Positions 9,373 through 55,986 of a stretch of DNA of 64,000 nt are shown here, piece by piece. The position numbers and the translations under genes were made by a program. Source of the DNA: Rhizophagus irregularis (Eukaryota). How positions within the stretch are numbered: position 1 is the first letter of the stretch; each line of letters begins with the position of its first letter. The DNA lies in NCBI RefSeq assembly GCF_026210795.1, contig NC_089432.1, positions 2,542,001 through 2,606,000 on the forward strand. The letters are read 5' to 3'. The notes under the pieces were generated by a model. That model saw only the letters and a program-made list of their open reading frames with translations. It ran no database searches and was not told the DNA's origin.

Positions 9373-9505
9373 GAATCATGTTTTAAAAAAAGAAAAATTG
9401 AATTTTTTTTTTATCATGTTAAAATATATATAGTACGCTACGTTAATTATAAAATAGTTTAACTGCGGCAATAAATCCAAACTTTCTATTGGAATTAATT
9501 ATACA

Positions 9506-15519: not shown

Positions 15520-16851
15520 GGTGGAGCATTAGTTGACGGCAAAAAAAAAAATAATAATAATCCTATTCACTCCGCTTACCTATTCACATGAGCTAACTTT
15601 AATTTACATAGAAAGATCTGCACCTTTTATTTTTCTCAAAGTGAACAAAGTTTATAGTACAATTATTACAACACGGAAAGATCCGCACTTTTCTGCGGTT
15701 ATGATTATGTCATTATGTCAATACTGCAATAGCAGCCTTTCTACTTTATCACATGAATTTTGCCGATCATTTGTCGATCATTTTCAAATTTATTTATTAC
15801 ATCATTACCGATACGGTATAGCACATCCCAAAATCCAGCAAATAAATTTATTTTATTTGTATTAATTTTTATTGTTCGAATTGAATTATTATCAGCTAAT
15901 TTTATAAATATTACCTTTTAATTTATATAATTTACGCGTTTCTTTAATATAAATATAAATGACTATAGATTTAAAAAAATTAACATAATATCTATTATAT
16001 TTCAAACTTTCCAAATTAATAATATTAACTCTTCTTTAAAATTTATTAAAATTAATAAAATTGAAAATGTAATAAAGGGCTTTAATATGTACCATCTACA
16101 CAAAATAATTTGTTACAGATGCAAGCTATATCAATATGAATAATTTTGTATTCATTGAAAAGAAGAGAGTGAGATCTATCTAATGAACTAAAAATCGCAT
16201 GAATTGAGTTATTGCTTGATGAATAAGTGCATTCAAAACATTCATTTTCAATTTTTGAATTTGATCATTAATATTTCAGTGTATTTCACCTTTTAAAATA
16301 ATGCAAAAATTATTTGTTTAGAATATATACATACAGAGAAAATAATGCCACATCACTAATATTAAAAAACTATCATAAAATTTCTTAATTACCAACAAAG
16401 CTTTTCATAAAATCTAGTTAAAAAAGTTTTATGACACTTTTGTTAAAAATTATCATGCTCTTCCACTTAAAATATAAATGAATGAATTAGACAAAATCTT
16501 ATGGTACGGCATTATTAAATCGTTAAAAATAGATAATTTTTAATAAAAATTCTTAAACTTTGATAAAAATAAGTAAATTTTCCTCCAAATATTCAAAAAA
16601 TTCATCCCAAACAGCTAGAAGTACAAACAATTTTTTTATTTCAACTCAAAAAAATTAATTGTTAAAAACCTTTAAAAATAATGCTTATTGCCCATTACGG
16701 GAGTATATTAATATAACATGACACACTCTTAGCGTTTCCCATTTTTGGGTACAGTTTTTCAGAATAAATATATGGAGTTGTATTAATTAAGGGTAGATAG
16801 AGTTTGGTTTTGGTACGAAATCTCGAAAATCATTTGAGCGACTGATACAAG

Positions 16852-17099: not shown

Positions 17100-17649
17100 A
17101 TAGAGTATTACTATTAATTGGTCGTCATATATTCGAAATGTCCAAAACATAATCAAATTTTCAGCAAAATATGAACTCCTGTAATAAAACTTATATGGTT
17201 AGAAGCCACGGTACTGTACTTTTATTTTTTAACCTAAAATATTTCTTTATTTAAAAAAATTACTGAGAAATCTTGAAGCTTAAAAAAGCTGGCGAATGTC
17301 ATTTGTTTTTGGCCGTTTATATTATCGGCTAATTTCCCGGTAAATTATTTTGCCGATATAATTGTTTTGCCGATCATATACTGGACAATTTTTTATTAGG
17401 AATGCCACGTGCCGTCTATCTTTATAGAGTTACCGGGTGAAACATTACATGGGATATGATATAAATTATTAAATTGATTAAAAATAATGTTACACGACGC
17501 ATGATTCCGAAAAATTCCGTTTATTTATTACACAAGTGAAATGGAAGAAAATTCTCACGTTTAAAATTTCAATAAAAAAAAAAATAAAAAATAAAAAAAA
17601 AAATTTTTTTTTTAAAAAATAAATAAATAATAAAGAAAAAAAAAATAGA

Positions 17650-19101
17650 ATGGCTTGTCATCTTCCAGCTGACTGTTTGGATGAAATATTTGAATATTTG
17701 GAGGAAGATAAACTCACTTTACATTCATGTTTGTTGGTTAATCATCTCTGGTGTGAAATTTCCGTTAGAATATTGTGGAGGAATATTTGGAATTTTAAAA
17801 GGTTAAGTAGAAAACGTTCATTGAGAGTATCATCATCAATCCTTAGTACATTAGTTGCTTGTCTTCCCAATGAATCAAGAGAAATCTTATATAAAAATGA
17901 AATTTTCCTTTCAACACCTACATCAAAACCACCACTATTTAATTACGCATCATTTTGCAAAGTACTTTCAATTTGTAGGATTAATATAATTGTTGAAGAC
18001 GTCCTTAAAAATGAACCATCAAGTGTAAATTGTTTAGTTACAAATGAAATTATTAAAATGTTTATGAATCAAATTTATGCTTTGAAAAAATTGAACTATT
18101 ACTGTAATCAATACACTATTAATTTAATTAATTTTTCTTTTACTTACTTTCCTGGAGCAAAAGATCTTTCAGAGTTATATTGCAGTTCAAATCTTCCTTC
18201 TAATTTTTTTCATCAATTGTCTCAAATATGTCATAATTTACAATCAATTTCTATAGATTTTCATTATGATGTTTCAAATGGGTTAAAAGAATTGATTTTT
18301 TTACAAAATAATTTAAAAGATTTGACATTATCAGCCTTTGATTATGTGAGTTGGGAAAATATTATACCTGCTATAACAAAACACTCTCAAACAATAACAA
18401 AATTACGACTTTATAGTGATAATGAATTACCATTTTCATTTGTTGGTTCATTCTCAAATTTACAAGAATTTATATTTTCATTTTCTGATGGATCAAGTTT
18501 TGAAGATTTTAAAGAGTTACAATATGTTAACTTTTCTAAATTACAAATTTTAAAAATTCCTCTTCAATGTCCACATCCTGATTATGTAAAGAAATTTTTA
18601 GAAATTAATGGAAAGAATCTGAAAAAGTTTTATACAGATGAGAATGATAAATCTTTAAATTTATCTATTGCTAAGTTTTGTCCAAATCTTACAAGTCTTT
18701 TTATAATATTCAATAAAGGTGAAAAGGATATATTGAAAACCATATTTAATAATTGTCAACACTTGGAGAGTATTAAAATTTGGGGTGGAAAAGAATATTT
18801 AACTGAAAAGGAAGTATTTGAAATTGTTGTAAATCACTCACCAAAAAGTTTTTGTGAATTAAAAATGTATAATAGTTCAGTTTCAGATGTTTTTCCAAAA
18901 GATTTGGAATCATTTTTTATAAACTGGAAAAAAAGAATACCAAAAAAATTACTTAATTTAATAATTATTAAGGAATTTCATTTTAATATGGAAAATATAA
19001 ATATAATTGAAAAATATGAAAATTTAGGTGTTGTTAAATTTGAGATTAAAGGGTATGAAGAGGAAGAAGATGATGAAGAAGAAGTCTATTCATTCTTATA
19101 A
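17650..19101 (+). CDS. F-box-like / RNI-like LRR protein (expanded Glomeromycota-type family)
   Basis: N-terminal LPADCLDEIFEYL...LHSCLLVNHLWCEISVRILW, PLFNYASF motif, leucine-rich repeats; intronless, 483 aa. Confidence 0.85.
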   Translation: MACHLPADCLDEIFEYLEEDKLTLHSCLLVNHLWCEISVRILWRNIWNFKRLSRKRSLRVSSSILSTLVACLPNESREILYKNEIFLSTPTSKPPLFNYASFCKVLSICRINIIVEDVLKNEPSSVNCLVTNEIIKMFMNQIYALKKLNYYCNQYTINLINFSFTYFPGAKDLSELYCSSNLPSNFFHQLSQICHNLQSISIDFHYDVSNGLKELIFLQNNLKDLTLSAFDYVSWENIIPAITKHSQTITKLRLYSDNELPFSFVGSFSNLQEFIFSFSDGSSFEDFKELQYVNFSKLQILKIPLQCPHPDYVKKFLEINGKNLKKFYTDENDKSLNLSIAKFCPNLTSLFIIFNKGEKDILKTIFNNCQHLESIKIWGGKEYLTEKEVFEIVVNHSPKSFCELKMYNSSVSDVFPKDLESFFINWKKRIPKKLLNLIIIKEFHFNMENINIIEKYENLGVVKFEIKGYEEEEDDEEEVYSFL

Positions 19102-24361: not shown

Positions 24362-27300
24362 TTAAACAAGAAAAATTTTATACAGTAAGTACACTTTAAT
24401 TAATTAGAATTTACGAATATTTTTTTTTTTTTAAAAAAAAATATATTACACACTGTATGTAATTTTAAATTATCAAAATAGTAAATCATTCTATAAATTT
24501 ATTTTCATAAGTTTATATATGAGAATATTACAAGTGATTAATTATCAAAAACCAAATTGGCAAAGCTTATATTGTGTTTTGGAATTTTTTTTTAAAGTTA
24601 GAATCTTCTTAATTTATTACAATATAATAATTTTCCCTATCCGGATTTAATGCATGATTTTCGCTCCCCAGTTTTTTAATCTTATTATTTTGGATAATAA
24701 GATTATTCGTAATTTTTCCGTAAAAGTGTGTCATAATAATCAAATTTATTTTAAACTTAGCAGTGACGGCAAAATCCAAAAAAAATGATATGATTATATC
24801 TACTAAAATGTGTTTAGTTTTGTTTGTAAAAATAGACGTTGCTAAAAAAAAGCAATCGAATCCCAACTTTAGATATATTTTATATATTTGTATGTTCTTT
24901 ATCATATAATTAATAAAATATCTCATTTTACAAAAAAAAAAGCAATCGAATCGGCAAAAAATCACGTGATTATTGGATTTCATATGTGATTAAAGGTCGC
25001 GTGAATAAAAATTTACGATTGATTCTAAAAGTATTAACACGTCATTAATTAGAGTTTATCAGTAAATAATATAAAATATTTAAAGGGGCCAAATCTATTG
25101 TTTCAAGTTGTAAAGAGAAATTCACTGTATTTAGCAACGTAAATGTTATTATCATAAGTCCAAGAGTTTAAATTTAAAAACTTGCAATAAATAAATAATG
25201 ATTTTGTTGTTATTTAGCAAAAAAAAAAAATTAAATATTAATATATAATTCTAAAATTTCAATATTAAAGATTAGACTTCTTTTTCTAAAAAGTAAATTC
25301 ATTCCTGAAATTTCAATGGAAAGTAATATTAATTGTTAATACTTTAAAATTATGACATATGCTAATACTGAAATTTTACCAAAATTAGTACTTTTTGCTA
25401 TTTTGTGGCTAATAAAGAATCAAATTAAAAATTAATATATTCATATAAATCACATTTTAATTAATTGAAAATTATATTTGGAAATTTCACCGGAAATTAT
25501 TTATATGGCAAGGACTTTTATCAAAATTCGGGTAAAAAATTCCTTGATATTATATTAATTGAGGTTGCTAGTTGTTATATACTAAATTGTTAAAGAGAAT
25601 TTTACATGATTTACTTTTTATATAAACTCTTCCGACGCAAAAGTGTGATTAAACTTGACTCTTATATTTAATTTAATATATGCGGGTCAAAACAATTCTG
25701 ACAGTTACAAATATTTGTTGGTAATCATACCATATTCATAAATAGAAGTGGTTTTTTTTACTTTGTAAAAATTAATTTCTGCCGTGGAAATTTTTTATTT
25801 AAAAATGTCTATTAATCTCATGAACGATTTCTTTTATAACAGCGTTGTCAGGTTTGAGCAATTTTAATATAAATTATTGTTCTGAATTTTTTGATTTACC
25901 GAATAACCGTTACCAATTTCATATTATTTCTAGTCCAATTACATGTTATCGTAACACTGTTTGAAATTAAACTGGCCAAAATTAAATTGGCAGTTTTTCG
26001 GGCCGGGCACTTTAGATGCGGGCTGGGCCAGTTGTGAAATAGAGTTCAAAGCAGCTCTAATTTATAGTTATTATGCTTATTTTTAATAAAGTATAATGCA
26101 AAAAAAATTTTTTAGTAGGAAGTAATTTTGCAAAAACAAAAATTCATAAGCAATTTTCCTTCTTCATAAAAACAACCAATTACTAATTAATATGAATGTG
26201 TAATAAATAGTTCTGAAGTTCTGGAATGACTAAATTTATTAGTTAAATTTAAAATTTGGCAAGTTAATCAGATATTAAATTTATTCTTAATTATATATAG
26301 TAAGATTTTATAAACTTTTTGAACGAACTGAATGAAATTATAAAATTAATTCTATCAACATTTGATTTTTAAAGAAATTACAAAGTATTGTTGCTAGGCG
26401 AACAAAGTTTATTACTATATTAATTTTAATTTCACATTACTTGATATAGTTACCTGATAAACCTTACATTTACTTTACCTTGTAGAAAATAATTGAAGTT
26501 CAAAACTTGGTTATCCTTTAACCTTTATTTACAGAATTTTTTAAAAAAAATCTTGCTAATATAACAAAATTAGTTAATAAATATAAGAATATGTATTGCA
26601 TCAACATCTATAGAGCAAATATAAAATGTAATATAAATTTTATAAAGGATAAATTAGTAACATAAAGCTTATATGTCTTATTATACAAAGTAAAATATTA
26701 GCTTAGCAATATAATAATAATGGGTTAATTATTATTGTTTAACTAAATTCTTGTCATAAGTAAAGTGTTTGTAGTTATAAGCAACTATCAATTATAATGA
26801 AAAATTTTTATTTAATATACTAAAACAAATTTAAAATAACTATTATAGTTATAGATATGTTATTGATTTATTTTACATAAATTGTTCTTTTTAAGTTTTT
26901 CCAACTTATATTGGGCATCTTGATCTCCTTGTTCAGCAGATTTTTCGTACCAATAAATTGCTTTATCTATATTTTTAACAATTCCCTTTCCATATTCATA
27001 CATCATAGCAAGATTATATTGTGCTGACTCATGTCCTAAATCTGCAGCCTTTTGATATAATTCAAATGCTTTTTTCATATCAATATCAGTTCCAATTCCT
27101 TTATTATAACAAATTCCTAAACCATATATTGCATCAACATTTCCCAAATCTGCTGCCTTCTGACATAATTCAAATGCTTTTTTCTTATCAATATTAGTTC
27201 CAATTCCATATGCATAACAATATCCTAAATTATTCATTCCAGTTGCATTTCCTAAATCTGCAGCCTTTTGATATAATTCAAATGCTTTTTTCTTATCAAT

Positions 27301-27650
27301 ATCAGTTCCAATTCCTTTACTATAACAAAGTCCTAAATTATATATTGCATTAACATTTCCCAAATCTGCAGCCTTTTGATATAATTCAAATGCTTTTTTC
27401 TTATCAATATCAGTTCCAATTCCATTTTCATAACAATTTCCTAAATCATTTATTCCAGTTGAATTTCCTAAATCTGCAGCCTTTTGATATAATTCAAATG
27501 CTTTCTTCTTATCAATATCAATTCCAATTCTATTTTCATAACAACTTCCTAAATTATACATTGCTGATGAATTTTCTAATTCTGCTGCTTTTTGATATAA
27601 TCCAAATGCTTTTTTCTTATCAATGTCAGTTCCATTTCCAAAATCATAAC

Positions 27651-28826
27651 TAGAGCTCCGCACGGGTCGGGTCGGGTCGGGTAATTTGTCTGACCCGAAC
27701 CGAAAATTTTTATCAGGTCGGGTCGGGTCGGGTAACCTGCTCTGACCCGACCTGACCCGTCTGACCTGAAAGTATTCAGGTCATTTTTCTATAAAATAAT
27801 ATGAAAAAACGCCGTTTTGGCGATTTTTTTCATAAAAGTGGAAAAAAATGCCGTTTCGGCATTTTTCCATTTAAATAATATGAAAAAACGCCGCTTTGGC
27901 GATTTTTTTCATAAAAGAAGTGAAAAAAAAATGCCGTTTTGGCATTTTTACATAAAATAATATGAAAAAACGCCGTTTTGGCGATTTTTTTCATAAAAGA
28001 AGTGAAAAAAAATGCCAAAACGGCATTTTTCCATAAAATAAATGAAAAAATGCCGCTTTGGCGATGTTTTCATAAAAGAAGTGAAAAAAATGCCGCTTTG
28101 GCGATTTTTTTCATAAAAGAAGTGGAAAAAAATGCCGTTTCGGCATTTTTCCATTAAATAATATGAAAAAACGCCGTTTTGGCGATTTTTTTCATAAAAG
28201 AAGTGGGAAAAAATGCCGTTTCGGCATTTTTCCATTAAATAATATGAAAAAACGCCGTTTTGGCGATTTTTTTCATAAAAGAAGTGGGAAAAAATGCCGT
28301 TTCGGCATTTTTCCATAAAATAATATGAAAAAAGCCGCTTTGGCGATTTTTTTCATAAAAGAAGTGAAAAAAAATGCCAAAACGGCATTTTTCCATAAAA
28401 TAATATGAAAAAACGCCGTTTTGGCGATTTTTTTTCATAAAAGAAGTGAAAAAAAATGCCGAAACGGCATTTTTCCATAAAATAATATGAAAAAACGCCA
28501 TTTTGGCGATTTTTTTCATAAAGAAGTGAAAAAAATGCCGAAACGGCATTTTTCCATAAAATAAAATGAAAAACGCCATTTCGGAGTATTTGTTTATAAA
28601 AAACAATGCCGAAACGGCGTTTTTTTCATAAGGTAACATGAAAAAACGCCGTTTCAGAGTATAAACATTTTTTTTGAGCTAAAGTATTCGGGTTAACAGG
28701 TCAATCGGGTCGGGTCAAACCTGTAACCCGACCTGATACCGGGTCACGAATTTGACAACCTGACCTGAATATTTCGGGTCAACCCGACGGGTCACCCGAA
28801 TTGACCCTTACCCGTGCGGAGCTCTA
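27651..28826. mobile_element. Non-autonomous hAT element with internal tandem hairpin array
   Basis: TIR TAGAGCTCCGCACGGGT / ACCCGTGCGGAGCTCTA; 8-bp TSD ATCATAAC (27643-27650, 28827-28834); GGGTC/GACCC subterminal motifs; absent from the paralog. Confidence 0.93.
27790..28660. repeat. ~81-bp tandem array (~10 units), each with two ~40-bp palindromic subunits
   Basis: Unit ~AAAATAATATGAAAAAACGCCGTTTTGGCGATTTTTTTCATAAAAGAAGTGAAAAAAAATGCCGTTTCGGCATTTTTCCAT. Confidence 0.93.
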
Positions 28827-31800
28827 ATCATAACAATGTCCTAAATTATTTATTCCTAATGAATTTCCTAAATCTGCTGCCTTTTGAAATAATTCAAATG
28901 CTTTTTTCTTATCAATATCAGTTCCAATTCCTTTTTCATAACAATGTCCTAAATTATTTATTCCAAATGAATTTCCTAAATCTGCTGCTTTTTGATATAA
29001 TTCAAATGCTTTTTTCTTATCAATATCAGTTCCATTTCCACAATCATAACAATATCCTAAATCATTTATTCCTAATACATTTCCTAAATCTGCTGCTTTT
29101 TGATAAAACTCAAATGCTTTTTGCTTATTAACACTAATCCCAATTCCTAATTCATTAAATTTTCCAAGTAAGTAAATAGAATTTGAGTTATTTTGATTAT
29201 TTAATAATAAATTATTAATCTCTTGCAAAGTTATATTTTGTTCATTAAGATAACTTAAGGTCTTTAGTTTTGCTACTTCATCATTATCATTAAAAAAATT
29301 GAACATATTATTAACTATTATATTAAAGTTATCCCAAATTGGTTACTTGATGACATTGAAGATTCTATTTCTTTTGTATTCATCATATTAAAATTTTGAA
29401 TAACTTGAGATAATTCTCCATGTAATGAATTAGTACTTTCAGAAATTTTAACATCTAAATCAGGTAGTTGATGGTTATTTGATGATTGGACAGTATTGTG
29501 ATCATCATATAAGTGAAAATCCTTTATATTTATATTTTCCTTTATTATAAGTACTTTTAATTCATCAACTACTTGGTTAATGGTTGGACGATTATCAGGT
29601 TCAATATTCCAACAATCTACAAAAAAGAACGTCTTTAATTAATTAAAATCAACATTGTTTGTAAGTCATAGTTAAATTGTATTTACCGGCATAAATTTTT
29701 ATATAATCTGTAGACGTATTGGGAATAGGTGTCTCTCTGAGGCCTTGTAGAATACTTAGAGCCAAGCCAACATCATACGGTATATTATGAAAAGGAGGCT
29801 GACCACTAGATATCTCCCATAGTAATACTCCAATGCTATAAACATCACTTTTTTTATTTAATAAATATAATTCTGTTGTACTTCTATTAAAGCTTTTTGG
29901 ATCAGCGTAAGGAATTAATCCAAATGTTTTCGATTGAGAGTTAGATGTTTCCTCAATTCTTTTTGATAAACCAAAATCTGCTAGCTTAATAGTATTCTGA
30001 TGGACTAACACATTATTGGAGTGCTATCAATATTAAATTAACGTTAAAATAAGAAAATCATTAAAATAAAACACATAGTAATAAATTGTAAAATATCTAC
30101 CAAATCACGGTGCACGATCCCTTTATCATGCAAACATGATACTGCATAAACCAATTGAAATGCGAGATTAAATTTATTGTCCCAAGTGAGATTTTCAAAA
30201 TTTTCTTTCAAATATTTTCGGAGGGTACCATTTTCTGCATATTCTATCACCAACGAATATTCTTTTTTTTGGTTTTCTTTTTAAAAAAAAACAAATTTTA
30301 TTGATCAATTAATTATTATATTTTATGAAATAAATAATATTAAGAATATATCATACCTTTAATAGAAGTTGTGACACCATAAAAACGAATAACATTATGA
30401 AAATCAACTTCACGTTGAAGTTGAATCTAGGTAATAAATAAATTATTACATCAAAAACTCAAATATTTATAATAATAATGAAAAATGTTTGACATTATAA
30501 TTACCTCACGAACTAATGCTTTGACTGTAGCATCATTAATATTAAAAAAAGATTTTATTGCATAACGCTTATGAGAATTCTTCCAATTAGCACGATAAAC
30601 TTTTCCAAAACCACCAGAACCAATTTCTTGAATATCATAAAATTGGTCATACTCATAATACTTAATAAGTTTTTTAGAAATCTCTTCTTCAATCCATTTA
30701 TTCCAATCATTTGAATTGCTAACAAGTTCAGGCTGTTCAGCGTTATTAGACATTGTTTGGTACGAAAAAAATTTTACTGCGGAATTTAAATTTATGCTTT
30801 TCGAAAATTGAAAAAAAAATATAAATATTTTTTTTTGTTTCAACTATTTATGTTTAGCTATTTATAAATAAATTTTTTTTTTTGTCTAACTATTTATAAA
30901 TATTTTTTTTTTTATTTATGAATGATTTTTAACTATTTATAAATAATTTTTTTTGTTTTACTATTTATAAATATGGTATCACTGAACGCCAAAGGCAACT
31001 GTCGATCATTTTACTTCTAATTTAAGTTAGATCATCAAACTTTGATGTTTTAACTTCTAATTTTTTAATTATCTGTGTGAAATAATTAATAAAATGAATT
31101 TTAATAATTTTATTTTAACTCTTCATTTAAATAATTTAATAAATATTTTAAAAATTCATTTTTTACTCCGCAAAAGTGTGCAAATTATGATAGAAACATT
31201 ATATTTCAACAACAATAAAATATTGTTTATCATATATTCATATTTGAAATTAAGGAATTATAATTAATATGACGAGGAAGCTCAAGATCTTTAAGCCACA
31301 ATGACTAATTGGAGTAATCAAAATAAAAGATCATATAACCTATAATTATATCAAATTACAATATTATCGATCTACAATCTTCATATAAATAAATTTTTTG
31401 TACGAAAGAGGTTAATTTTATTCCCACAAAAAAAGAATAACCATTAACGTGTTTAAAAAATCATAAATTATTGCCATCAGTATTTATATTTCTGATTAAT
31501 AATTTAACAATATTCTAAAAATTTTATTGTAACAAAAATTTCTTTATAAAATTTTAATCAAATAAAAATTCATTGTATCTCAGTCCTAATACAATAAAAG
31601 CAAATAATATTATTGTGAGGTTTAATCTAGATCCTAAAAAAAAAATTTTATTAAAAAAAATTTCTTTAGTGATGGATTTAATTTAAGGTAAAAGTACTCT
31701 CATATTCGTAATATTAGATTTTTGAAAGTTTCTCCATTTGTTTGAATTAATTATTTTTTTTAAACGGTGATTTGTTTGTTGATCACCGATATTATTATGC

Positions 31801-33189
31801 ATAATGATCAAATTCAAGAAAAAACAATATATAAAAATGAATACCTTTTGGCTATGTACCGCGTAATACTACTTTATAATAACGAATTAATTGATTATTT
31901 AAAATCATTAGGTAAATTTTTTCGAACGGAATGCGCTACCCATGTCTTCAAAACAGCCTTATCAATTTCATTTTGTTCATATATCATTGATAAAGGTTCA
32001 ATTGATTCATTGTAATCAGACTTCTTTAAACTAGAACTGTTTATATTATCTATTCTTTATAATTTCTAATCTTGTTTTCAAGTGATTCTTGCCAGTAGCA
32101 TTTAGTTCCAGAACAACCATTAGCAAGATATTATAGTGATATACGTCCATTTATCCTACGTACCCAATACTTTGGACAATAATTGCAGTTGCGATATCCA
32201 TCATGTACTGTATATCAGATCTATTATTAAAATTATTTATTTATGAGTCACAGTAAATCAAACTTTATGATATTAATAGTGCAGTAAATCTGTTTTGAAA
32301 ATATTATTAACATTTGCGTCTATTACACTACGTTTTGGATCGGTTCATATGATCGCCAATTCTCACTTCTACTTCTTAGAACATGGATTACTCAATGAAG
32401 CCTAAAATAGTCTTTTTTTGTGTACATGTTTCACGTTTTTCCGCATATCTCAAATTTCGAGCAAGAGGACATCATGAAAATTAATTAATGTAAATTATAA
32501 TTTAATTATAAAGAACCCTAATTGTCATAATTTTTTAAAAATTGTAACGAAAACAAAAGTATTGTAAAATTAAAAAAAATCGCTTTTTTTTAAAAAAAAA
32601 ATAATATTTCTACGGCATCCTATAAGTGAACAATTATCTGACTAGGTTGCACGGTTGAACAGCTTTACCATAATGACGAACACACTGTGTATATTAAATA
32701 TTACCAGTTTGCTAGTATTGTCCTACTATAAAATTATAGAGTACCGAATTTTTAATAGTAAGCCTATAATTTTTGACACATGATGTCATATTTTCGTAAA
32801 ACAGTTTGTGCTTAGATTTAACATTATTATTTTATAATTTTATAGACCAATTTATATTTAAAGACAATTATTTATCATATTTTGTGAATTTTCCACATTA
32901 AACAATAAAGTGAAATTCAAATAGTCTCGAAGAGTACTACAACAAATAATTTTTTGCTCGGCGTCTAACAAAAAAAAGAAGAAATATAGTCTTTGAAAAA
33001 AAAATTAGTATTATATTTTTATTTAATATTTATCAATACCTGACTAATTCCGTAATTCTAAATCTCGTTGAAAAGCTAAATTTATGAATGTATAATAAAA
33101 AATAATTTATTTTTGCGTATTTAAAGAATGTATAGTTCAATTTTTTAAATAAAAATTATTCATTAACAATTTCTTTTACAGTGATGATA

Positions 33190-33312
33190 TTAGTAAAATT
33201 AAAAAAGGATTTTTAACATTAATTAATGCTTCAAATTTTCTAATTTACATGGAAAACTTCACTTTTCCAAATGCTCCGGAACCAATTTCTTGAATATTTT
33301 TTAATTTCAAAT
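33190..33312 (-). pseudogene. Kinase exon-1 relic
   Basis: KNIQEIGSGAFGKV readable on the minus strand at ~33260-33300; degenerate on both sides. Confidence 0.6.
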
Positions 33313-34012
33313 TTAGTATATAAAAATGACGTCTGCTGATCATTTGACGATCATCTCCAAAAAAGGAACAACGTAATTTTTGACGAAAAAAAAAAATTTT
33401 TAAAATAAAACTTAATATAAGCTTCGTATAGCCTTCAAATTATAACTTTTAGGTAATTTTGACTGCTCTACAAATTTACTTAATATCTTAAGAAAGGTTA
33501 TAAATACCATTTTTGAAATTTATGACTTGGGGTGAGAAATATCGAATCTCACCCGGGGTGAAGAATAAATTCACCCTTAAATTTATTCTTAATCATATAT
33601 AATAAGATTTTATAAACTTTTTGAACGAATGAAATTATGAAATTAATTCAATCAACATTTGATTTTTAAAGAAATTATAAAGTATTGTTGCTAGGCGAAC
33701 AAAGTTTATTACTATATTGATTTTTATTACTTGATATACCTGATAAACCTTATATTTAGTACTTTACCTTGTGGGAAAATAATTGAAGTTCAAAACTTGG
33801 TTATCCTTTAACCTTTATTTATAGATTTTTTTTTAAAAAATCTTGCTAATATAAAAAAATTAACAAATATAAGAATATGCATAAACATCTAAAGAGCAAA
33901 TATGAAATGTAATATAAATTTTATAAAAGTTTATAAAGGGATAAATTAGTAAAATAAAGCTTTATATGTCTTACTACACAAAGTAAAACATTAGCTTAGC
34001 AATATAATAATA

Positions 34013-34186
34013 CAGTCAAAGTTCTCTATAACGAATCCCACGGGCCGGAGATTAAAATTCGTTATAGTAAGAAATTCGCTATACTAAAAGCCATTTTATT
34101 ATAAATACTAAGATCTGTACCTGAACTTTTCTTCATTATAGCAAATTATTCGCTATATAAAAATTCGCTATAGAGAACTTTGACTG
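34013..34186. mobile_element. Tc1/mariner (pogo-like) MITE, 174 bp
   Basis: 24-bp TIR CAGTCAAAGTTCTCTATA(A/G)CGAAT; TA TSD; empty site in copy A at ~26718. Confidence 0.93.
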
Positions 34187-34328
34187 TAATGGGTTAATTA
34201 TTGTTTAACTAAATTCTTGTCATAAGTAAAGTGTTTGTAATTATAAGCAACTATCAATTATAATGAAAAATTTTTATTTAATATACTAAAACAAATTTAA
34301 AATAATTATTATAGTTATAGATATGTTA

Positions 34329-37137
34329 TTAATTTATTTTACATAAATTGTTCTTTTTAAGTTTTTTCAACTTGTATTGAGCATCTTGATCTCCTTGTTC
34401 AGCAGATTTTTCGTACCAATAAATTGCTTTATCTATATTTTTAACAATTCCCTTTCCATATTCATACATCATAGCAAGATTATATTGTGCTGACTCATGT
34501 CCTAAATCTGCAGCCTTTTGGTATAATTCAAATGCTTTTTTCATATCAATATCAGTTCCAATTCCTTTATTATAACAAATTCCTAAACCATATATTGCAT
34601 CAACATTTTCCAAATCTGCTGCCTTCTGACATAATTCAAATGCTTTCTTCTTATCAATATTAGTTCCGATTCCATATGCATAACAATATCCTAAATTATT
34701 CATTCCAGTTACATTTCCTAAATCTGCAGCCTTTTGATATAATTCAAATGCTTTTTTCTTATCAATATCAGTTCCAATTCCTTTACTATAACAAAGTCCT
34801 AAATTATATATTGCATCAACATTTCCCAAATCTGCTGCCTTTTGATATAATTCAAGTGCTTTCTTCTTATCAATTTCAGTTCCAATTCCATTTTCATAAC
34901 AATTTCCTAAATCATTTATTCCAGTTGAATTTCCTAAATCTGCTGCTTTTTGATATAATTCAAATGCTTTCTTCTTATCAATATCAATTCCAATTCTATT
35001 TTCATAACAACTTCCTAAATTATATATTGCTGATGAATTTTCTAATTCTGCTGCCTTTTGATATAATTCAAATGCTTTCTTCTTATCAATATCAGTTCCA
35101 ATTCCATCATCATAACAATGTCCTAAATTATTTATTCCTAATGAATTTCCCAAATCTGCTGGCTTTTGATATAATTCAAATGCTTTTTTCTTATCAATAT
35201 CAGTTCCAATTCCTTTTTCATAAAAATGTCCTAAATTATTTATTCCAAATGAATTTCCTAAATCTGCTGCTTTTTGATATAATTCAAATGCCTTTTTCTT
35301 ATCAACATCAGTTCCAATTCCTTCTTCATAACAATCTCCTAAATTATATATTCCCATTGAATTTCCTAATTCTGCTAACTTTTGATATAATTCAAATGCC
35401 TTTTTCTTGTCAATATCAGTTCCAATTCCATTTTTATAACAATACCCTAAATCATTTATTCCAAATGGATTTCCTAAGTCTGCTGCCTTTTGATATAATT
35501 CAAATGCTTTATGCTCACTAACATTAACACCAATTCCTAAATCATTAAATTTTCCAAGTAAATAAATAGAATTTGAGTTATTTTGATTATTTAATAATAA
35601 ATTATTAATCTCTTGCAAAGTTATATTTTGTTCATTAAGATAATTTAAGACCTTTTGCTTTGCTACTTCATCATCATCATAAAAAAAATTGAACATATTA
35701 TTAACTATTATATCAAAGTTATCCTCAAATTTGTTAATTGATGATATTGAAGATTCAATATCTTTTGTAGTATTCATCATATTAAAATTTTGAATAACTT
35801 GAGATAATTCTCCATGTGATGAATTAGTACTTTCAGAAATATTTAAATTAGGCAGTTGATGGTCATTTAATGATTGGACATTATTGGTATCATTATACAA
35901 GTGAAAATCTTTTATAATTATGTTTTCTTTTGTTATGATCACTTTTAATTCATCAACAACTTGATTAATAGTTGGACGATTATCAGGTTCAATATTCCAA
36001 CAATCTACAAAAAAGAACGTCTTCAATTAATTAAAATCAACATTGTTTATAAGTCATAGTTAAATTGTATTTACCGGTATAAATTTTTATATAATCTATA
36101 GACGTATTTGGAAGAGATGTCTCTCTGAGGCCTTGTAGAATACTTAGAGCCAAACCATCATCACACGGTATACCATGAAAAGGAGGCTGACCACTAGATA
36201 TCTCCCATAGTAATACTCCAATGCTATAAACGTCACTTTTTTTATTTAATAAATATAATTCTGTTGTACTTCTATTAAAGCTTTTTGGATCAGCGTAAGG
36301 AATTAATCCAAATGTTTTCGATTGAGAGTTAGATGTTTCCTCAATTCTTTTTGATAAACCAAAATCTGCTAGCTTAATAGTATTCTGATGGACTAACACA
36401 TTATTGGAGTGCTATCAATATTAAATTAACGTTAAAATAAGAGAATCATTAAAATAAAACACATAATAGATTGTAAAATATCTACCAAATCACGGTGCAC
36501 GATCCCTTTATCATGCAAACATGATACTGCATAAACCAATTGAAATGCGAGATTAAATTTATTGTCCCAAGTGAGGTTTTCAAAATTTTCTTTCAAATAT
36601 TTTCGGAGGGTACCATTTTCTGCATATTCTATCACCAACGAGTATTCTTTTTTTTGGTTTTCTTTTTAAAAAAAAAAATTTTTTATTGATCAATTAATTA
36701 TTATATTTTATGAAATAAATAATATTAGAATATATCATACCTTTAAAAGAAGCTGTGACACCATAAAAACGAATAACATTATGAAAATCAACTTCACGTC
36801 GAAGTTGAATCTAGGTAATAAATAAATTATTACATCAAAAACTAAAATATTTATAATAATAATGAAAAATGTTTGACATTATAATTACCTCACGAACTAA
36901 TGCTTTGACTGTAGCATCATTAATATTAAAAAAAGATTTTATTGCATAACGCTTATGAGAATTCTTCCAATTAGCACGATAAACTTTTCCAAAACCACCA
37001 GAACCAATTTCTTGAATATCATAAAATTGGTCATACTCATAATACTTAATAAGTTTTTTAGAAATCTCTTCTTCAATCCATTTATTCCAATCATTTGAAT
37101 TGCTAACAAGTTCAGGCTGTTCAGCGTTATTAGACAT
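34329..37137 (-). CDS. Kinase-Sel1 protein K3 (5 exons, 11 Sel1 repeats), apparently intact
   Basis: Exons ~37137-36889, 36810-36741, 36661-36487, 36412-36076, 36005-34329; GSGGFGKV, AIK, HRDLHSNN, DFG, SDVYSIG; frame kept across GT-AG junctions. Confidence 0.9.
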
Positions 37138-40100
37138 GGTTTGGTACGAAAAAAATTTTACTGTGGAATTTAAATTTATGCTTTTCGAAAATTGAAAAAA
37201 AAAATAGAAATATTTTTTTTTGTTTCAACTATTTATGTTTAGCTATTTATAAATAAATTTTTTTTTTTTTGTCTAACTATTTATAAATATTTTTTTTTTT
37301 TTATTTATGAATGATTTTTAACTATTTATAAATATTTTTTTTTGTTTTACTATTTATAAATATGGTATCACTGAACGCCAAAGGTAACTGTCGATCATTT
37401 TACCTCTAATTTAAGTTAGGTCATCAAATTATGATGTTTTAACTTCTAATTTTTTAATTGTCTGCGTGAAATAATTAATAAAATGAATTTTAATAATTTT
37501 ATTTTAACTCTTCATTCAAATAATTTAGTAAATATTTTAAAAATTTTTTTTTACTCCGCAAAAGTGTGCAAATTATGGTAGAAACATTATATTTCAACAA
37601 CAATAAAATTTTGTTTATCACATTTGAAATTAAGGAATTATAATTAATATGACAATGACTAATTGGGGTAATCAAAATAAATATCATATAACCTATAATT
37701 ATATTAAATTACAATATTATCGGTCTACAATCTTCATATAAATAAATTATTTGTACGAAAGAAATTAATATTATTCCCACAAAAAAAGAATAACCATTAA
37801 CGCGTTTAAAAAAATCATAAATTATTGCCATCAATATTTATATTTCTGATTAATAATTTAACAATATTCTAAAAATTTTATTGGCAAAAATTTTTTATAA
37901 AATACAGTATTAGTCAAAAAAATATTCAGTGCGAATAATATTTATATTGTAAAATCATTTCAAGGTTTAATCTAGATCCTAAAAAAAAAATTTTATTAAA
38001 AAAAAAATTATAAAAATTTTATCAAAAATAATTTCTTTAGTGGATTGTAATTTAATGTAAAAGTACTCATATTCGTAATATTAGATTTTTGAGAGTTTCT
38101 CCATTTTTTTTGAATTGATTATATTTTTTTTTTAAACGGTTATTCAATATTATTAAACATGATGATCAAATGCAAAACGGAATGCGCTACCCATGCCTTC
38201 AAAACAGCCTTATCAATTTCATTTTGTTCATGTATTGATAAGGGTTAAATTGATTCATTGTAATCAGCTTCTTTTAAACTAGCACTGTTTATATTATCTG
38301 TTCTTTATAATTTCTAATCTTGTTTTCAAGTGATTCTTGCCAGTAACATTTAGCTCCAGAACAACCATTAGCAAGATATAGGATATACGTCCATTTATCC
38401 TGCGTCCCCAATACTTTGGACAATTAGACCGACAGTGATTGTAAGTTGCGATATCGATGTACTGTATATCAGATCTATTATTAAAAGTATTTATTTATGA
38501 GTCACAGTAAATCAAACTTTATGATATTGATAGTGCAGTAAATAACTGTTTTGAAAATATTATTAATATTTGCGTCTATTACACTACGTTTTGGATCGGT
38601 TCATATGATCGCCAATTCTCACTTCTACTTCTTAGAACATGGATTACTCAATGAAACCTAAAATAATCTTTTTTTTTTGTATATGTTTCACGTTTTTCCG
38701 CATATAAATGTAAATTATAATTTAATTATAAAGAACCATAATTGTCATAATTTTTTAAAAATTGTAACGAAAACAAAAGTACTGTAAAATTAAAAAAATC
38801 ACCTTTTTTTTTAAAAAAAAAATATTATTTCTACGGCATCCTATAAGAGAACAATGATCTAGGTTGCACAGTTGAACAACTTTACCATAATGACGAACAC
38901 AATGTGTATATTAATTATTACCAGTTTGCTATTGTCCTATAAAATTAAAGAGTACCGATGTATGAGTAACACGGGTCACTGCAACGATTAATTAGCAAAA
39001 GGAAATTCATAAATAGTCTATCAAGAAAACGAATAGGAATTAAGGAATTTAACGTCACCCTTATTAGGGACCGCAAATCAGATACTACCACCCCACTTAA
39101 CATACTTTTCTCCAACTCCAATAAAGTATGCGTATGAGGATCCTTATCATGGTCCTGCCATAATTATAATGATTCGGTATCCTGAGATGACGCGTGTGTT
39201 ATCAGTAAGAAACAGGTCTTTTACCTTATTTTACTTTCACCTTTACCAAATCTTGTAAATCTCATACAAAGGTAATTCGCAGTTCTAGTGTTCTTAGAAC
39301 TTTCTCTCTACTCTTTTGACTGGTAAAGGAGAAGCAGAACAGAGGCTGGAATGAAATTTTTTAATATGACACTTGAAAATAATTTATTTTTCCTACTTTT
39401 ACGTGGACGCCTTAAACTTTTGCAAGACTTGGAAGTTGGACTAACGGTCATAGTATGTTTAACAATTCTTCCCATGTTTTTATATGTGCATATTATTAAG
39501 CGCGTAAAATATTATTAAACACGTAAAATATTCAAGTAAGGAATATGGAAAATTATTGCAAAAGTTTATTATTGCAGAGATGGGATTTGAAAAATTAATT
39601 AAAAGGATAGGTATTTTTATAGTATTTCTAGTTGTACAAACTCTTTGTGATACAATATAGGTTTATGATATACTGCGCATCAATAAAATCAGTGGCTTGC
39701 GTTAGTTATTCTGTTATAGGTTGTTAAAACTCATAATAGTCTATATGATTGCAAATATATAAATTTTAGCTGACAAAAAATATCAGTCCGTCTAATATCA
39801 TTTCGGAATTTTAATAAGTTAAATTATTCACTTCTTTTACATCTTTTACGATAATGATCTATTTAGAAAAATAAATTTTATGCATGATAATATGATCAAT
39901 ATAATTATGATGCTCTTACCATATAGTTACATATTATTTTATTACCATATGACAATTAAGGAGAAACCCATGTTAGTCATATAATGAATGATAAAGGGGA
40001 AAAGTTGATCACCATCATGATTTTCTTTTAATAATACTCGTCCACTTTTCTTTACAACTTATTAATTTCATTTTCTTTTAATATAATTAGAGATAAAAAG

Positions 40101-41369: not shown

Positions 41370-42842
41370 TTAATTAACTTTTTTTTGAATCCATTCAAAA
41401 TCATCAAAAGTTTGACCATATGAAACATTCTCATAATTTTCAACTATTCCTTCTGCTTTATATCTTTCCATAAAATCAATATTATTTAAACAATAATTGC
41501 TAGAACAATAAAGTGGAGTAGTTTGTAATAAAATTGGATGTCTTCCTTTCCAATTATCAAGAAATAATTTTATAGAATCTAATTTTGGAGATTCATTAAA
41601 ATAAAATTTAAATTTAAATAAACAATTTGGTGAAGATTTGGCCAAAACTTCAAATAAATGATCCCAATCAATTACCCTATCATTATGTTCTATATTATAA
41701 CTATCAAACATATTATTAACTAAAATATATAAACCATTCAAATATTGACAATTAATTAACAATTTTTCTAACTCTAATATATTACTATTCCGGATGACCA
41801 ATTTAAGATATTTGAGATATGTACAATTTTGATAAATAGCTTGAATGATCCTCTTATTATTATTCTCATCATGACTTACATAATCAATATTTATTTCATT
41901 AAGATATCCTCTTGAATTTTCAATTAATATTATTATAACCTTAATTGGAACTCTTCTAGCTTTTAAAACTTGTAAAAAGGGAAATGATAATCGTTCCAAC
42001 CAATTACATGCCTTTAATTCATTAAAATTATCATCCAATTCCAACCTTTTTAAATTTACAAAAGAAGTTAGAGTCTTTGTAACAGGTATATTTGTTGTAG
42101 TAAAATGTTGTATAATATTTGCATGTTTAATTAATGAATTTTCAAGAATTTCACAAAATGGTTCATCTGTTTTATAATGACACTTTGTTATGAATTTAAT
42201 ACTAAATAATTTTTTTGGTGTTTCAATCAATTTAATAATTTCATAATTATTATTATCATCTTGAATGAAAAGTTCCAATTCTTTAATTAATTTACAAAAT
42301 TTTGTTAATCCATTTAATACTTCATCATTTATATTAGTATTACAACTAAGAAATCCAATTTCTGAAAAACAATGTTTAGCTCCAGGAATATTTTGTATTT
42401 TATAATCAAATTTTTGTGGTATATAAAGATGTGTGAATTTTGTATTTTCATTAATAAAAAGTTTAAACATTTCTTGTTTAATATTTAAAATTTCTTTTTC
42501 TTCATTTATATTATTAATTATTATCTTTTCAATTTCTTTTAAATTTAAATGTCTACAAAAACTAATATAATCAAATAACGGTTTGTTATATGAATTTATT
42601 AAAAATTTATAACGTTTTGTTAAATGATTTGTTAATTTTTCGTTTGTTGAATGTGAAACAATAACTTTTAAAAATAATTTTTCATTTCCTCCCTTCAAAT
42701 ATTTCCATGGATTTTTCCATAAAATTGGTACAAGTATTTCACACCATGTCTTGTTAACTAAAATGCATGATCGAAGCGTCTTTTTATCATTTTGTAATTC
42801 TTCAAATATCAAATAGAGGACGTCTCCGTTTAAATTGAACAT
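41370..42842 (-). CDS. F-box-like / RNI-like LRR protein
   Basis: MFNLNGDVLYLIFEELQ...LRSCILVNKTWCEILVPILWKNPW, PLFDYISF; same family as 17650-19101; likely start ATG 42842. Confidence 0.85.
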   Translation of the reverse strand: MFNLNGDVLYLIFEELQNDKKTLRSCILVNKTWCEILVPILWKNPWKYLKGGNEKLFLKVIVSHSTNEKLTNHLTKRYKFLINSYNKPLFDYISFCRHLNLKEIEKIIINNINEEKEILNIKQEMFKLFINENTKFTHLYIPQKFDYKIQNIPGAKHCFSEIGFLSCNTNINDEVLNGLTKFCKLIKELELFIQDDNNNYEIIKLIETPKKLFSIKFITKCHYKTDEPFCEILENSLIKHANIIQHFTTTNIPVTKTLTSFVNLKRLELDDNFNELKACNWLERLSFPFLQVLKARRVPIKVIIILIENSRGYLNEINIDYVSHDENNNKRIIQAIYQNCTYLKYLKLVIRNSNILELEKLLINCQYLNGLYILVNNMFDSYNIEHNDRVIDWDHLFEVLAKSSPNCLFKFKFYFNESPKLDSIKLFLDNWKGRHPILLQTTPLYCSSNYCLNNIDFMERYKAEGIVENYENVSYGQTFDDFEWIQKKVN

Positions 42843-43644
42843 TTTTAGAAAGAAAATTCTCTTGTTAAAAAAAATATTAATCATATTGTATTACTTAATG
42901 ACGTTTCATGTTGTACACTCACTATACCACATTTATTGTACAAATATAGATATATTTGCCGTGTGATCATGATCATGCGAGTAACAGAAATTCACGTGGG
43001 CAATCATTTTTCAACAAGTGGTCACGAAGATCATTACGTAATTAATGCAGATCTTAATTTAATCGTCAATTTTTTTTTTTTTTAAAACAATAGTTTTAGG
43101 ACGTACATTAGAGTATTTTTTTGAATATATTGCTATAGATATTTTAACAATTTAACAGAATATATTACTTACTTGAAAAGTTCTTTTATTCTACTTCTTC
43201 AACCATCAATGAAATTAATTCACACTTTATCTCTAAATATTCTTCTTTTTCAATATCATCTATTCTCAAATTAATATTTTTATTATTTCTTTCTTCAAAT
43301 TCATATTGTATATTTTGCTCAACTGGTTCAAAAAAGTCTTGTTGTAGATTAATGTTAAGAGCCAAATTAAATAGATTAATATTATAAATGGATATCATGT
43401 ATTTCTTTTTACCTAATATTTATTATAATAAAAATTAATATTTTTTGATGTTGTTTGGCGTGCCAATGTCATTAGACATTCAAATCATTTCGATGCTACT
43501 AAAATTCCATTAAATAATTCTTAAAATAATTTGCCCTGAAAGTTGTATTACCAATTTGCTGTAATGTCTTTTGGACTAATTCTTTGACGACAATTATACC
43601 AGAAAATACATACAAAATTGTGACGTTTTTGTGACCATCTTTGG

Positions 43645-44786: not shown

Positions 44787-47105
44787 TTAATTATTATGTC
44801 CTAAATATTTCAATTTATTTTGTGCACTTTGAAATCCTTGATTAGCAGATTTTTTATACCAATAAATGGCTTGATCTATATTTTGTTTAATACCTTCCCC
44901 ATCTTCATACATTAAAGCAAGATTATATTGAGCATCACAACATTCCAATTTTGCTGCTTCTTGAAATAATTCAAATGCTTTTTTCTTATCAATATTAGTT
45001 CCAATCCCATTATTATAACAATAACCTAATAAATTCATTCCATCTGAATGATCTTCTGCAGATTTTTTAGCTAATTCAAAAGCTTTATTATAATCCTTTT
45101 CTGTACCATCACCATCAAGATATAAATTAATAAGATTACATTGAGCTCTAATATTACCTAAATCTGCTGCTTTTTGATATAATTTAAATGCTTTTTTCAT
45201 ATTAATTTCAGTTCCAATTCCCATACTATAACAATATCCTAACCTATTTATTCCATTTGGATTTCCTACTTTTGCTAATTTTTTTGATAATTCAAAAGCT
45301 TTATTATAATTTTTTTTAATACCTTTTCCTTCTATATATATACTAGCAAGAACTAACTGTGCTACAACATTTTCTAATTCCACCGCTTTTTGATATAATT
45401 CATAAGCTTTATGTTTATTAGTACAAGTTATAATTCCATGATAATTAAAATATCCAAGTAAATAAATAGAATTTGAATCATTTTGATTATTATTATTATT
45501 ATTTAAAAGCCAATTATAAATTTCTTGTAATTTTATCTCTTGATTATTAAAATAATTTAAAATATATCTTCTTATAACATATTCTTCTTTACCTTTATTT
45601 AAACATTGAAGATAAAATTTCATTAATTCATCAATCACAATACCTAAATCTTCTTCAGATATATTTTTATGAATATATTGAATTGTTGGTTCTGTTTCTT
45701 TTATTTCTTTCAAATAAATTTTATCAAAATTTTGAATAATAATTTTTTGTGATTCTTTAAATAAATCATTATTATTATTATGATTGTTATCTAACTTTTC
45801 ATTATCATCCGTTTGTATCTTAATAATTTCTCGTAATTTAGAAATTATTTGATTCATTACTGGTCTATTATCTGATTCTCCATTCCAACATTCTAAGACA
45901 CCATCCGACAAACGTTAGAATTACGTTAGAATTAATTAAATGTGAAAATTGAATAAAATAATAATTCAATAGAATTTTTAAAACAAAAAATAATTTGAGC
46001 GATATTTACCGATATAAAGATTAGAATAATCAAGAGGAGTATTTGAAACAATAGTTTCTCTGTAACCTTGTAAAATTTGGTTTACCAAATTAGAATCGTA
46101 CAATTTACCTTCAAACGGTGATTTACCACTTGATATCTCCCACAAAAGTACTCCAATACTATAAACGTCGCTCTTTTCATTAAATATAAACGATCGTACT
46201 ATATTATTTGATTCAACAATTAAACATTTTGGATCAATATAAGGAATTTTATCAAGTAAATCTGATGATTGTTTAGATATTTCTTTGATTCTATTTGATA
46301 ATCCAAGATCTACTAATTTTATAGTAGTATTCCTATGAACTAATATATTACCAGAATTCTATTATAAAATAAAATATAAGCGATCAAACCGTAAAGTGAA
46401 TTTAAATAATTTAACGAAAAAAATAATTTAATTACCAAATCGCCATGTATAATTCCTTTATCATGTAAAAATGATATAGTATATGTTAACTGGTACGCCA
46501 ATTTGTATTTGTCTTCCCAAGTAAGATTCTTAAAGTTCTCTTTCAAATAACTACGAAGAGATCTACCATCAACATCTTCCATTACTAATAAATATTCTTT
46601 CGCTTGATCATTATGATTTTCTAAAGAAAATAATTTAATTAATGTATTAGAACATTTCTTTCCTTTTTTTTAAAAAAAAAAAATCTATAAATTCGAAATA
46701 CGCATATACCTTTATTTGTAATTCCACAAAAGTTAATGATATTTTCATGAGAATCAATTTCACGATAAAGTTTAATCTAAATTTTACAAAAAATAAATTA
46801 GTAATTAAATTATTATAAATTACTAAATTAAAATATAATATTTTTTTTAAAAAAAAAATTACCTCTTGAACGATTTCTTTTATATCAACATTATCAATAT
46901 TAAAAGATTTTAATATAAAATAATGATCCGAATTTTTCCATTTTACACGATAAAAATTTCCGAAATTCCCATTACAGAATTTTTCAATATATAGAAAATC
47001 ATTATAATCATAATATTTTAAGTTATTTTTAAAAATATTTTCTTCAATCCAATTAATCCATTCATTTGTATTTACGGTAACTTTATTATTTTTTATGTCG
47101 GACAT
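44787..47105 (-). CDS. Kinase-like-Sel1 protein K4 (5 exons), divergent catalytic motifs
   Basis: Frame intact across exons; motifs FCNGNFGNF, HGDLNSGN, VDLG; ~6 Sel1 repeats in the last exon. Confidence 0.85.
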
Positions 47106-55715: not shown

Positions 55716-55799
55716 TTTTTTAATAATAATAAAAATTACCTCATGAACAATTTCTTTCAAAGTAATTTTATTAAGACAATAAAAAGATTTTAACGCTAA

Positions 55800-55986
55800 C
55801 CCTGTAAAAAATCTGATCTGTGTTTTATCTTTCCATGTTTTTTCCGTGAATGTATCATTTTCATGGAATTTATAGCCTTAAATCATGGAAATTTTCATCT
55901 CGCTAACACGGATATCCGTGAATGTATCATTTTCACGGAATTTTTACGGAAGACACGGAGAAATAATGGAAATATTTTTTATAGGG
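55800..55986. mobile_element. 187-bp MITE with CCC...GGG ends and 3-bp TAA TSD (superfamily uncertain: CMC/EnSpm-like or PIF)
   Basis: TIR CCCTGTAAAAAAT / ATTTTTTATAGGG; removing it and one TAA restores YLALKSF. Confidence 0.85.

What the first reader, a model, noticed from the sequence alone, without database searches (positions are those of the whole stretch)
26860..37137. Recent paralogs K2/K3 differ in Sel1 unit number and identity while the kinase exons are near-identical
Seen: kinase exons are almost identical, yet K2 has 10 repeats and K3 has 11. The N-proximal units differ sharply (K2 VLGINDLGYCYDCGNG; K3 PFGINDLGYCYKNGIG plus SMGIYNLGDCYEEG). K2 carries the GNG variant in two non-adjacent units, where K3 has GIG. 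Inference: unequal crossover or intra-array gene conversion after duplication, i.e. repeat shuffling caught in progress.
Basis: partly seen in the sequence, partly recalled or inferred. Interest (0 to 1): 0.7.

Follow-up and report, generated by a model that had tools for sequence, protein, structure and literature searches.

The report
Broken, patchwork duplicate of Sel1-repeat kinase
Two neighbouring copies of a repeat-protein kinase gene in a root-symbiotic fungus differ by one repeat; one copy is broken by a frameshift and a small transposon, and the differences likely come from sequence swapping among related genes, an ordinary process in large gene families.

Summary
K2 and K3 are tandem Rhizophagus irregularis kinase–Sel1 genes. 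The counts hold at DNA level: 10 against 11 units, kinase exons 97.7% identical, GNG in K2 units 1 and 3.

A 1-bp frameshift lies before the array (376-aa kinase-only product, also in a separate assembly), and a 1,176-bp hAT-like non-autonomous transposon (17-bp TIR, 8-bp TSD) splits unit 3.

This is not general shuffling: eight of ten K2 units match K3 in order (0–7 nt of 108). The differences sit in one ~750-bp block (9.1% against 2.3%) that ends where the missing unit maps. In the linker, K2 groups with R. diaphanus and other paralogs, K3 with OCT59_023865; a K2+K3 clade is rejected. So one copy likely received a block from another family member out of register; the direction leans to K3 but is unresolved. 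K2's 'different' unit 1 is an old type. The shared GNG is probably a ~60-bp intra-array conversion abutting the transposon (modest support). K3's 11 units are conserved in another isolate, so nothing is shown 'in progress'.

Verdict: ordinary birth-and-death with ectopic conversion. The family-level likeness to diversifying fungal NLR repeats is the lead worth following.

The parts
34329..37137 (-). K3: intact kinase-linker-11xSel1 gene, 835 aa; exons 37137-36889, 36810-36741, 36661-36486, 36411-36075, 36004-34329
   Evidence: Spliced translation is open and reads as P0123 = OCT59_023892 (compared by eye); Pfam PF07714 plus 11 Sel1
34389..35576 (-). K3 Sel1 array, 11 units of 108 bp (u0 35576-35469 to u10 34496-34389); u2 (35360-35253) has no partner in K2
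26860..30753 (-). K2: disrupted paralog; exons 30753-30505, 30426-30357, 30276-30101, 30023-29687, last exon from 29616; natural product 376 aa, kinase only
   Evidence: identical to P0124, POG66379.1; Pfam finds no Sel1 in P0124; OCT59_023891 (P0092) is a model that splices round the frameshift
29334..29335 (-). 1-bp deletion (frameshift) in the K2 linker, upstream of all repeats; stop at 29318-29320
   Evidence: Alignment; ORF end; short-read contig X12 29302-29388 bridges it with 0 differences
26923..29186 (-). K2 Sel1 array remnant, 10 units (u0 29186-29079, u1 29078-28971, u2 28970-28863, u3 split by the element, u9 27030-26923)
27651..28826 (.). hAT-like non-autonomous DNA transposon (MITE-like), 1,176 bp: perfect 17-bp terminal inverted repeats, 8-bp target-site duplication, subterminal CGGGT/ACCCG motifs, internal 81-bp tandem array; no transposase detected
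   Evidence: its ends continue into other flanks in runs X12 and X16; one internal ORF tested had no Pfam hit
29035..29786 (-). High-divergence block in K2 (kinase 3' end, intron 4, linker, u0, 5' half of u1)
   Evidence: 68 of 746 against 56 of 2478 mismatches; 0 of 200 permutations reach it
35425..36174 (-). Matching block in K3; its linker is closest to OCT59_023865 (P0131) apart from its own ortholog
27589..27642 (-). Unit-1-like patch in K2 unit 3 (carries the second GNG), starting next to the element's target-site copy
   Evidence: site pattern ooooDxDDDoo; alignment
26275..32747 (.). Duplicated block holding K2
   Evidence: self-BLAST, alignment
33577..38958 (.). Duplicated block holding K3
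   Evidence: self-BLAST, alignment

Best explanation
K2 and K3 are tandem duplicates of a Sel1-repeat kinase, K2 is broken by a frameshift and a transposon, and their patchy divergence and one-unit difference likely come from ectopic gene conversion among cluster members rather than from ongoing shuffling of the array. Steps: (1) tandem duplication of a 5-6 kb block, at about 6-7% neutral divergence (duplication shown, age inferred). (2) One copy likely took the linker to about unit 1 from another family member, and the tract likely resolved out of register, leaving 11 against 10 units (mixed ancestry shown; direction inferred, about 60:40 for K3 as recipient). (3) The 5' end was likely homogenised later between K2 and K3 (inferred). 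(4) A ~60-bp tract of K2 unit 1 was probably copied into unit 3 (inferred, about 60%). (5) K2 was inactivated recently (breaks shown, timing inferred). K3 is predicted to be a cytoplasmic signalling kinase whose Sel1 solenoid binds partners through a few variable positions per repeat (family knowledge, untested).
For: Block of 68 of 746 against 56 of 2478 mismatches, 0 of 200 permutations; synonymous sites alone 20 of 144 against 3 of 133, p=0.0004. Linker tree: K2 with P0040/41/42/49 at 99/95, K3+P0125 with P0131 at 94/89, K2+K3 clade rejected, p-AU 6e-58, whereas the kinase tree joins K2+K3+P0125 at 96/94. At 24 linker columns where K2 and K3 differ, P0131 sides with K3 at 19 and P0041 with K2 at 22. 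The best placement of the 108-bp gap is inside u1 (array nt 163-167; 124-197 within one mismatch), at the block's end. Far flanks 75 of 1197 and distal-array synonymous sites 9 of 134 agree (p=0.85), while kinase-5' synonymous sites plus introns 1-3 are lower, 9 of 364 (p=0.003). A 3-aa N-terminal insertion is shared by K2 and K3 but absent in P0125. Distal-array pN/pS is 0.18 (p=0.0009), so the loss of function is recent. The frameshift appears in a separate assembly and in short-read contigs.
Against: Direction is unresolved: neither constrained kinase tree is rejected (p-AU 0.27 and 0.09), and a synteny argument for P0041 failed. Intron 4 lies inside the block yet differs at only 2 of 70 nt, so the block's 5' part may not be imported. 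Donor evidence is protein-level only and uses gene models with errors. K3 u1 and u2 have no close match in P0131, so the link between the tract and the extra unit is positional only. Low 5' divergence could partly reflect constraint on introns. The unit-3 patch rests on two informative sites; a run of 4 is reached in 4 of 122 triplets.
Confidence: 0.72

Rival explanations
1. Pure intra-array events after duplication: an unequal crossover or slippage deleted one unit in K2, fusing u1 and u2, and intra-array conversion made the variants.
For: The gap sits within u1, as a u1/u2 fusion would give; K2u1's 3' half is 2 nt from K3u2 and 6 from K3u1. K2u1's nearest unit is K2u3 (9 nt), not a K3 unit.
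Against: It does not explain the different ancestry of the non-repetitive linker or the match of K2u1 to R. diaphanus P0041. K2u1's 3' half is near-consensus and as close to several other units.
Confidence: 0.15
2. K2 and K3 are old paralogs of two linker lineages; the central block is the unconverted remnant, and both arms including flanks were overwritten by long K2-K3 conversions.
For: It gives the same tree incongruence, and exchange at the 5' end is indicated. A large insertion could halt a tract, which would explain why the unit-3 patch abuts the element.
Against: It needs multi-kb tracts on both sides at the same ~6% level; one central replacement is simpler.
Confidence: 0.1
3. The unit difference or the K2 breaks are assembly errors.
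For: One related gene has models of 792, 828 and 612 aa in three records of the reference strain, so this family is prone to such errors. No contig spans K2 u1-u3.
Against: The frameshift is bridged by a short-read contig and recurs in another assembly. Element junctions match short-read contigs with 0 differences, though with only 26 and 30 letters on the short side. Units within an array differ by at least 7 nt. K3 units are 100% identical over 347 aa in another assembly.
Confidence: 0.03

Closest known systems
Expanded tyrosine-kinase-like (PF07714) + Sel1 (PF08238) family of Glomeromycotina
   Same: Domain order and organism; 1,565 relatives at E<=1e-10; listed as high-copy, often methylated genes in PMC8647823 and as expanded in PMC6123716 (passages read).
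   Different: Nothing in architecture. Those passages do not describe unit-level exchange.
Fungal NLRs with high-internal-conservation (HIC) repeats, e.g. Podospora HNWD (PMC13449251, passages read)
   Same: Similar repeats (85% nt between K3 interior units), a few hypervariable codons per unit, variable unit number, inter-paralog exchange, pseudogenes from frameshifts and TE insertions.
   Different: No NACHT or NB-ARC domain; a kinase instead. Units are less homogeneous (74% aa) and keep their order between paralogs and isolates. K3 shows no length polymorphism in the one other isolate seen. No non-self-recognition function is shown.
hAT-superfamily non-autonomous elements / MITEs
   Same: 8-bp target-site duplication, short TIR, subterminal repeats, multiple insertion sites (superfamily criteria recalled); hAT is reported as recently expanded in this species (PMC8647823 passage).
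   Different: 1.2 kb with an internal 81-bp tandem array; autonomous partner not identified.

Membership tests
Glomeromycotina kinase-Sel1 family | N-terminal PF07714/PF00069 kinase domain | tested here: met
   both K3 and the K2 product
Glomeromycotina kinase-Sel1 family | C-terminal Sel1 array in the same ORF | tested here: met
   K3: 11 repeats. For K2 met only as a DNA remnant; its 376-aa product has none.
Glomeromycotina kinase-Sel1 family | Kinase activity and ligand binding | not testable with these tools
   G-loop, lysine, HRD and DFG motifs are present in the sequence; no assay
HIC NLR (HNWD-like) | NACHT or NB-ARC nucleotide-binding domain | tested here: not met
   no such Pfam hit
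HIC NLR (HNWD-like) | High internal conservation of repeats | tested here: inconclusive
   K3 u1-u9 mean 85% nt, 74% aa pairwise; T-REKS Psim was not computed
HIC NLR (HNWD-like) | Hypervariable codons under diversifying selection | tested here: inconclusive
   codons 1, 2, 9, 12, 13 have pN 0.42-0.72 against overall pS 0.19; picked after viewing, no site-model test
HIC NLR (HNWD-like) | Repeat-number polymorphism between strains | tested here: inconclusive
   only one other full K3 ortholog seen; same 11 units
hAT non-autonomous element | 8-bp target-site duplication | tested here: met
hAT non-autonomous element | Short terminal inverted repeats and subterminal motifs | tested here: met
hAT non-autonomous element | Autonomous hAT transposase element with the same ends | not testable with these tools
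   no whole genome held for this window

The most novel reading that the evidence does not exclude
The hundreds of kinase-Sel1 genes of arbuscular mycorrhizal fungi are a diversity-generating receptor family that works like HIC NLRs: conserved repeats with about five hypervariable codons, with kinase, linker and repeat blocks swapped between clustered paralogs by mitotic ectopic conversion, partly triggered or bounded by DNA-transposon insertions. This would give a largely clonal fungus a sex-independent source of new binding specificities.
Probability: 0.25. Interest if true: 0.62.

Novelty: new member of a known kind. Interest (0 to 1): 0.3.

Why it matters
As it stands this is one worked example of how a large, poorly understood signalling family of mycorrhizal fungi turns over: duplication, block exchange between paralogs, then loss by frameshift and transposon. 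The processes are well known elsewhere. It would matter more if a genome-wide test showed systematic, selected diversification at the five variable repeat positions, since that would bear on how these fungi generate variation with little evident sex. In practice it also shows that the public model OCT59_023891 appears to splice round a real frameshift, so family counts likely include pseudogenes.

Tried and rejected
Synteny as a polarising argument: accession spacing first suggested that R. diaphanus RGB36595 (P0041) is the positional ortholog of K2, but neighbours map in reverse order (RGB36617 to OCT59_023919, RGB36620 to OCT59_023915), so I dropped it.

Unit-level tree of the 21 repeats: only 4 of 17 inner branches were well supported, and u1-u5 were unresolved.

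Metagenome scan for ortholog DNA: 1 of 167 candidate stretches, 46% identity, not useful.

Expression: run X18 (RNA by guess only) covered 3 of 30 bins with short pieces inside the shared repeats; no evidence either way. No empty-site joint appeared among the joints listed (the list was cut), and contigs cannot show absence. The runs may be the same strain as the window.

The second homolog search found no intact full-length K2 ortholog among the 120 of 640 hits listed. Other window kinases are only 65-75% alike in DNA and are not plausible donors. Rfam: no match. Earlier findings: none returned.

The first K2 translation was faulty and was redone. The script stopped at its last lines; P0017, P0007 and P0008 were not in the linker tree, and P0042, P0049, P0017 and P0003 were not in that kinase-core tree (rebuilt, still without P0049 and P0003). 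No GENECONV was available; permutation and triplet counts were used instead. No fold or complex prediction was run.
Full report
Context. The window is AT-rich fungal DNA with many minus-strand kinase-Sel1 genes. Protein searches place it in Rhizophagus irregularis: K3 corresponds to OCT59_023892 (P0123) and K2 to OCT59_023891 (P0092) and POG66379.1 (P0124). No whole genome was held, so comparisons with other genes are at protein level. K2 and K3 lie in duplicated blocks, 26275-32747 and 33577-38958.

Observation. K3 splices into an open 835-aa frame with a PF07714 kinase and 11 Sel1 repeats. K2 holds 10 units in DNA. The quoted unit sequences and the two GNG units are real. But K2 is broken twice. 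First, one base is missing at 29334/29335, so the natural product is 376 aa, kinase only, identical to POG66379.1. That record comes from a separate assembly, since its K3 model P0005 differs from the window in exon 2. A short-read contig of run X12 bridges the site with no difference (29302-29388). Second, a 1,176-bp element at 27651-28826 splits unit 3 and supplies a stop. It has perfect 17-bp inverted ends, an 8-bp target duplication and an internal 81-bp tandem array. Contigs match both junctions exactly but with only 26 and 30 letters on the short side, under the tool's 31-letter rule. The element's ends run into other flanks in runs X12 and X16, so it is multi-copy. The 8-bp duplication points to the hAT superfamily (criterion recalled).

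Where the copies differ. Exon 1 differs at 0 of 249 nt, all kinase exons at 21 of 898, the linker at 30 of 358, u0 at 12 of 108. Units u2-u9 of K2 are each nearest to u3-u10 of K3, at 0-7 nt; u0 pairs with u0; only K2u1 lacks a clear partner (9 nt to K2u3, 11 to K3u4, 14 to K3u2, 15 to K3u1). A change-point scan over 3,224 aligned sites finds one block, K2 29786-29035, with 68 of 746 mismatches against 56 of 2478 outside; 0 of 200 permutations reach it. Constraint on the kinase does not explain this: synonymous sites alone give 20 of 144 against 3 of 133 (p=0.0004). The 108-bp gap fits best at array nt 163-167, inside u1, where the block ends.

Three divergence levels appear: central synonymous sites 13.9%; far flanks 6.3% (75 of 1197) and distal-array synonymous sites 6.7% (9 of 134); kinase-5' synonymous sites plus introns 1-3 2.5% (9 of 364). 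I left the poorly aligned middle 5' flank (57 of 604) and the proximal flanks (13 of 395, 2 of 132) out of the far-flank figure. Intron 4 (2 of 70) was left out of both groups; it lies inside the block and is low, which argues that any imported tract starts after it.

Ancestry. In a 17-protein linker tree K2 groups with P0040, P0041 (R. diaphanus), P0042 and P0049 (99/95), while K3 and its ortholog P0125 group with P0131 = OCT59_023865 (94/89). A K2+K3 clade is rejected (p-AU 6e-58); the group was named before the tree was seen. In an 18-protein kinase tree K2, K3 and P0125 are one clade (96/94). So one copy is a mosaic. The four proteins nearest to K2's kinase after K3 and P0125 (5-8% differences) all carry K2-type linkers, against 11-12% for P0131, P0030, P0134 and P0024. 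This leans to K3 as recipient, but neither constrained tree is rejected and my synteny argument failed. K2u1 matches P0041's first unit at 14 of 16 residues; K3u1 and K3u2 have near matches only in P0125 among 160 proteins. P0125 has all 11 units in K3's order. K2 and K3 share a 3-residue N-terminal insertion that P0125 and most relatives lack, while K3 and P0125 share three array residues against K2. That suggests a later K2-K3 exchange over exon 1, on few sites.

The GNG patch. At 11 sites that separate K2u1 from K3u4, K2u3 reads ooooDxDDDoo, where D is the unit-1 state and o the ortholog state. That fits a 54-73-bp tract copied from unit 1. Against it: 4 of 122 triplets reach a run of 4, two of the D sites are array consensus, and GNG occurs in 16 of 687 relatives' units. 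For it: only 2 of 122 triplets share a rare state, and this is one. I put conversion at about 60%. The tract's 5' edge falls in the 11 bp that contain the element's target site. That may reflect repair at insertion, a tract halted by the insertion, or chance; it is unexplained.

Timing and function. The distal array shows purifying selection between the copies (7 of 571 nonsynonymous, 9 of 134 synonymous; p=0.0009), and the element's ends are perfect, so K2 lost its array recently. Whether the kinase-only product is made is unknown. K3's interior units are 85% alike in DNA and 74% in protein, with variation concentrated at codons 1, 2, 9, 12 and 13 (pN 0.42-0.72, overall pS 0.19; positions picked after viewing). 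Among 106 fetched kinase-Sel1 proteins a simple pattern, which undercounts, finds 1-11 units; 4 of 106 hold identical units within one array. Unit-number change is thus routine in the family.

Comparison with what is known. The family expansion is described in PMC8647823 and PMC6123716 (passages only). Repeat gain, loss, inter-paralog exchange and pseudogenes from frameshifts and TEs are described for Podospora NLRs in PMC13449251 (passages only; it has no mention of Sel1 or Rhizophagus). K3 is not an NLR: it has no NACHT or NB-ARC domain. Seven literature searches (listings and abstract starts only) showed no paper on unit-level exchange in these fungal Sel1-kinases or on this element. The library lacks most subscription journals, and I read no supplements; TE libraries in them may already name the element.

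Verdict. A real but ordinary case: a recently pseudogenised tandem duplicate with a mosaic history. Interest 0.3.

Noticed in passing
window 34013-34186: 174-bp element with perfect 18-bp inverted ends between TA dinucleotides, 3' of K3 and absent at the matching K2 site; Tc1/mariner-like MITE (superfamily criterion recalled).
   Followed up: partly
window 719-8943 (+): Two long overlapping ORFs (823 and 1,928 aa) that read like an intact LINE retroelement: zinc-knuckle ORF1, then endonuclease, reverse transcriptase and RNase H motifs (motifs recalled, not scanned).
   Followed up: no
window 13156-15566, 44787-47144, 48311-50612, 53768-56337, 61671-63839 (-): At least five more kinase-Sel1 paralogs in the same orientation, 65-75% alike to K2/K3 in DNA.
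   Followed up: partly
window about 33160-33291 (-): Degenerate kinase exon-1 fragment between K2 and K3, 74% alike to the gene near 15.3 kb; probably a relic paralog.
   Followed up: no
window about 53214-53484: About 270-bp stretch with inverted-repeat-like ends and internal AACCGACC repeats; likely another MITE.
   Followed up: no
K2 u6/u8 and K3 u7/u9: These units are only 7 nt apart in both genes and group at 99/99: an older intra-array duplication that predates the K2/K3 split.
   Followed up: partly
proteins P0001, P0128, P0129: One related gene has models of 792, 828 and 612 aa in three records of the reference strain, differing in repeat number; assembly or annotation collapse, or real variation.
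   Followed up: no
window 17623-19101 (-), 41370-42890 (-), 9458-10965 (+): Two F-box-like genes and a Kelch-repeat-like gene, typical of this fungus's expanded families (labels recalled).
   Followed up: no
window about 32584-32601, 37270, 38804-38822: Many contigs leave the window sequence at these AT-rich points in all four runs; a short high-copy repeat or low-complexity matches.
   Followed up: no
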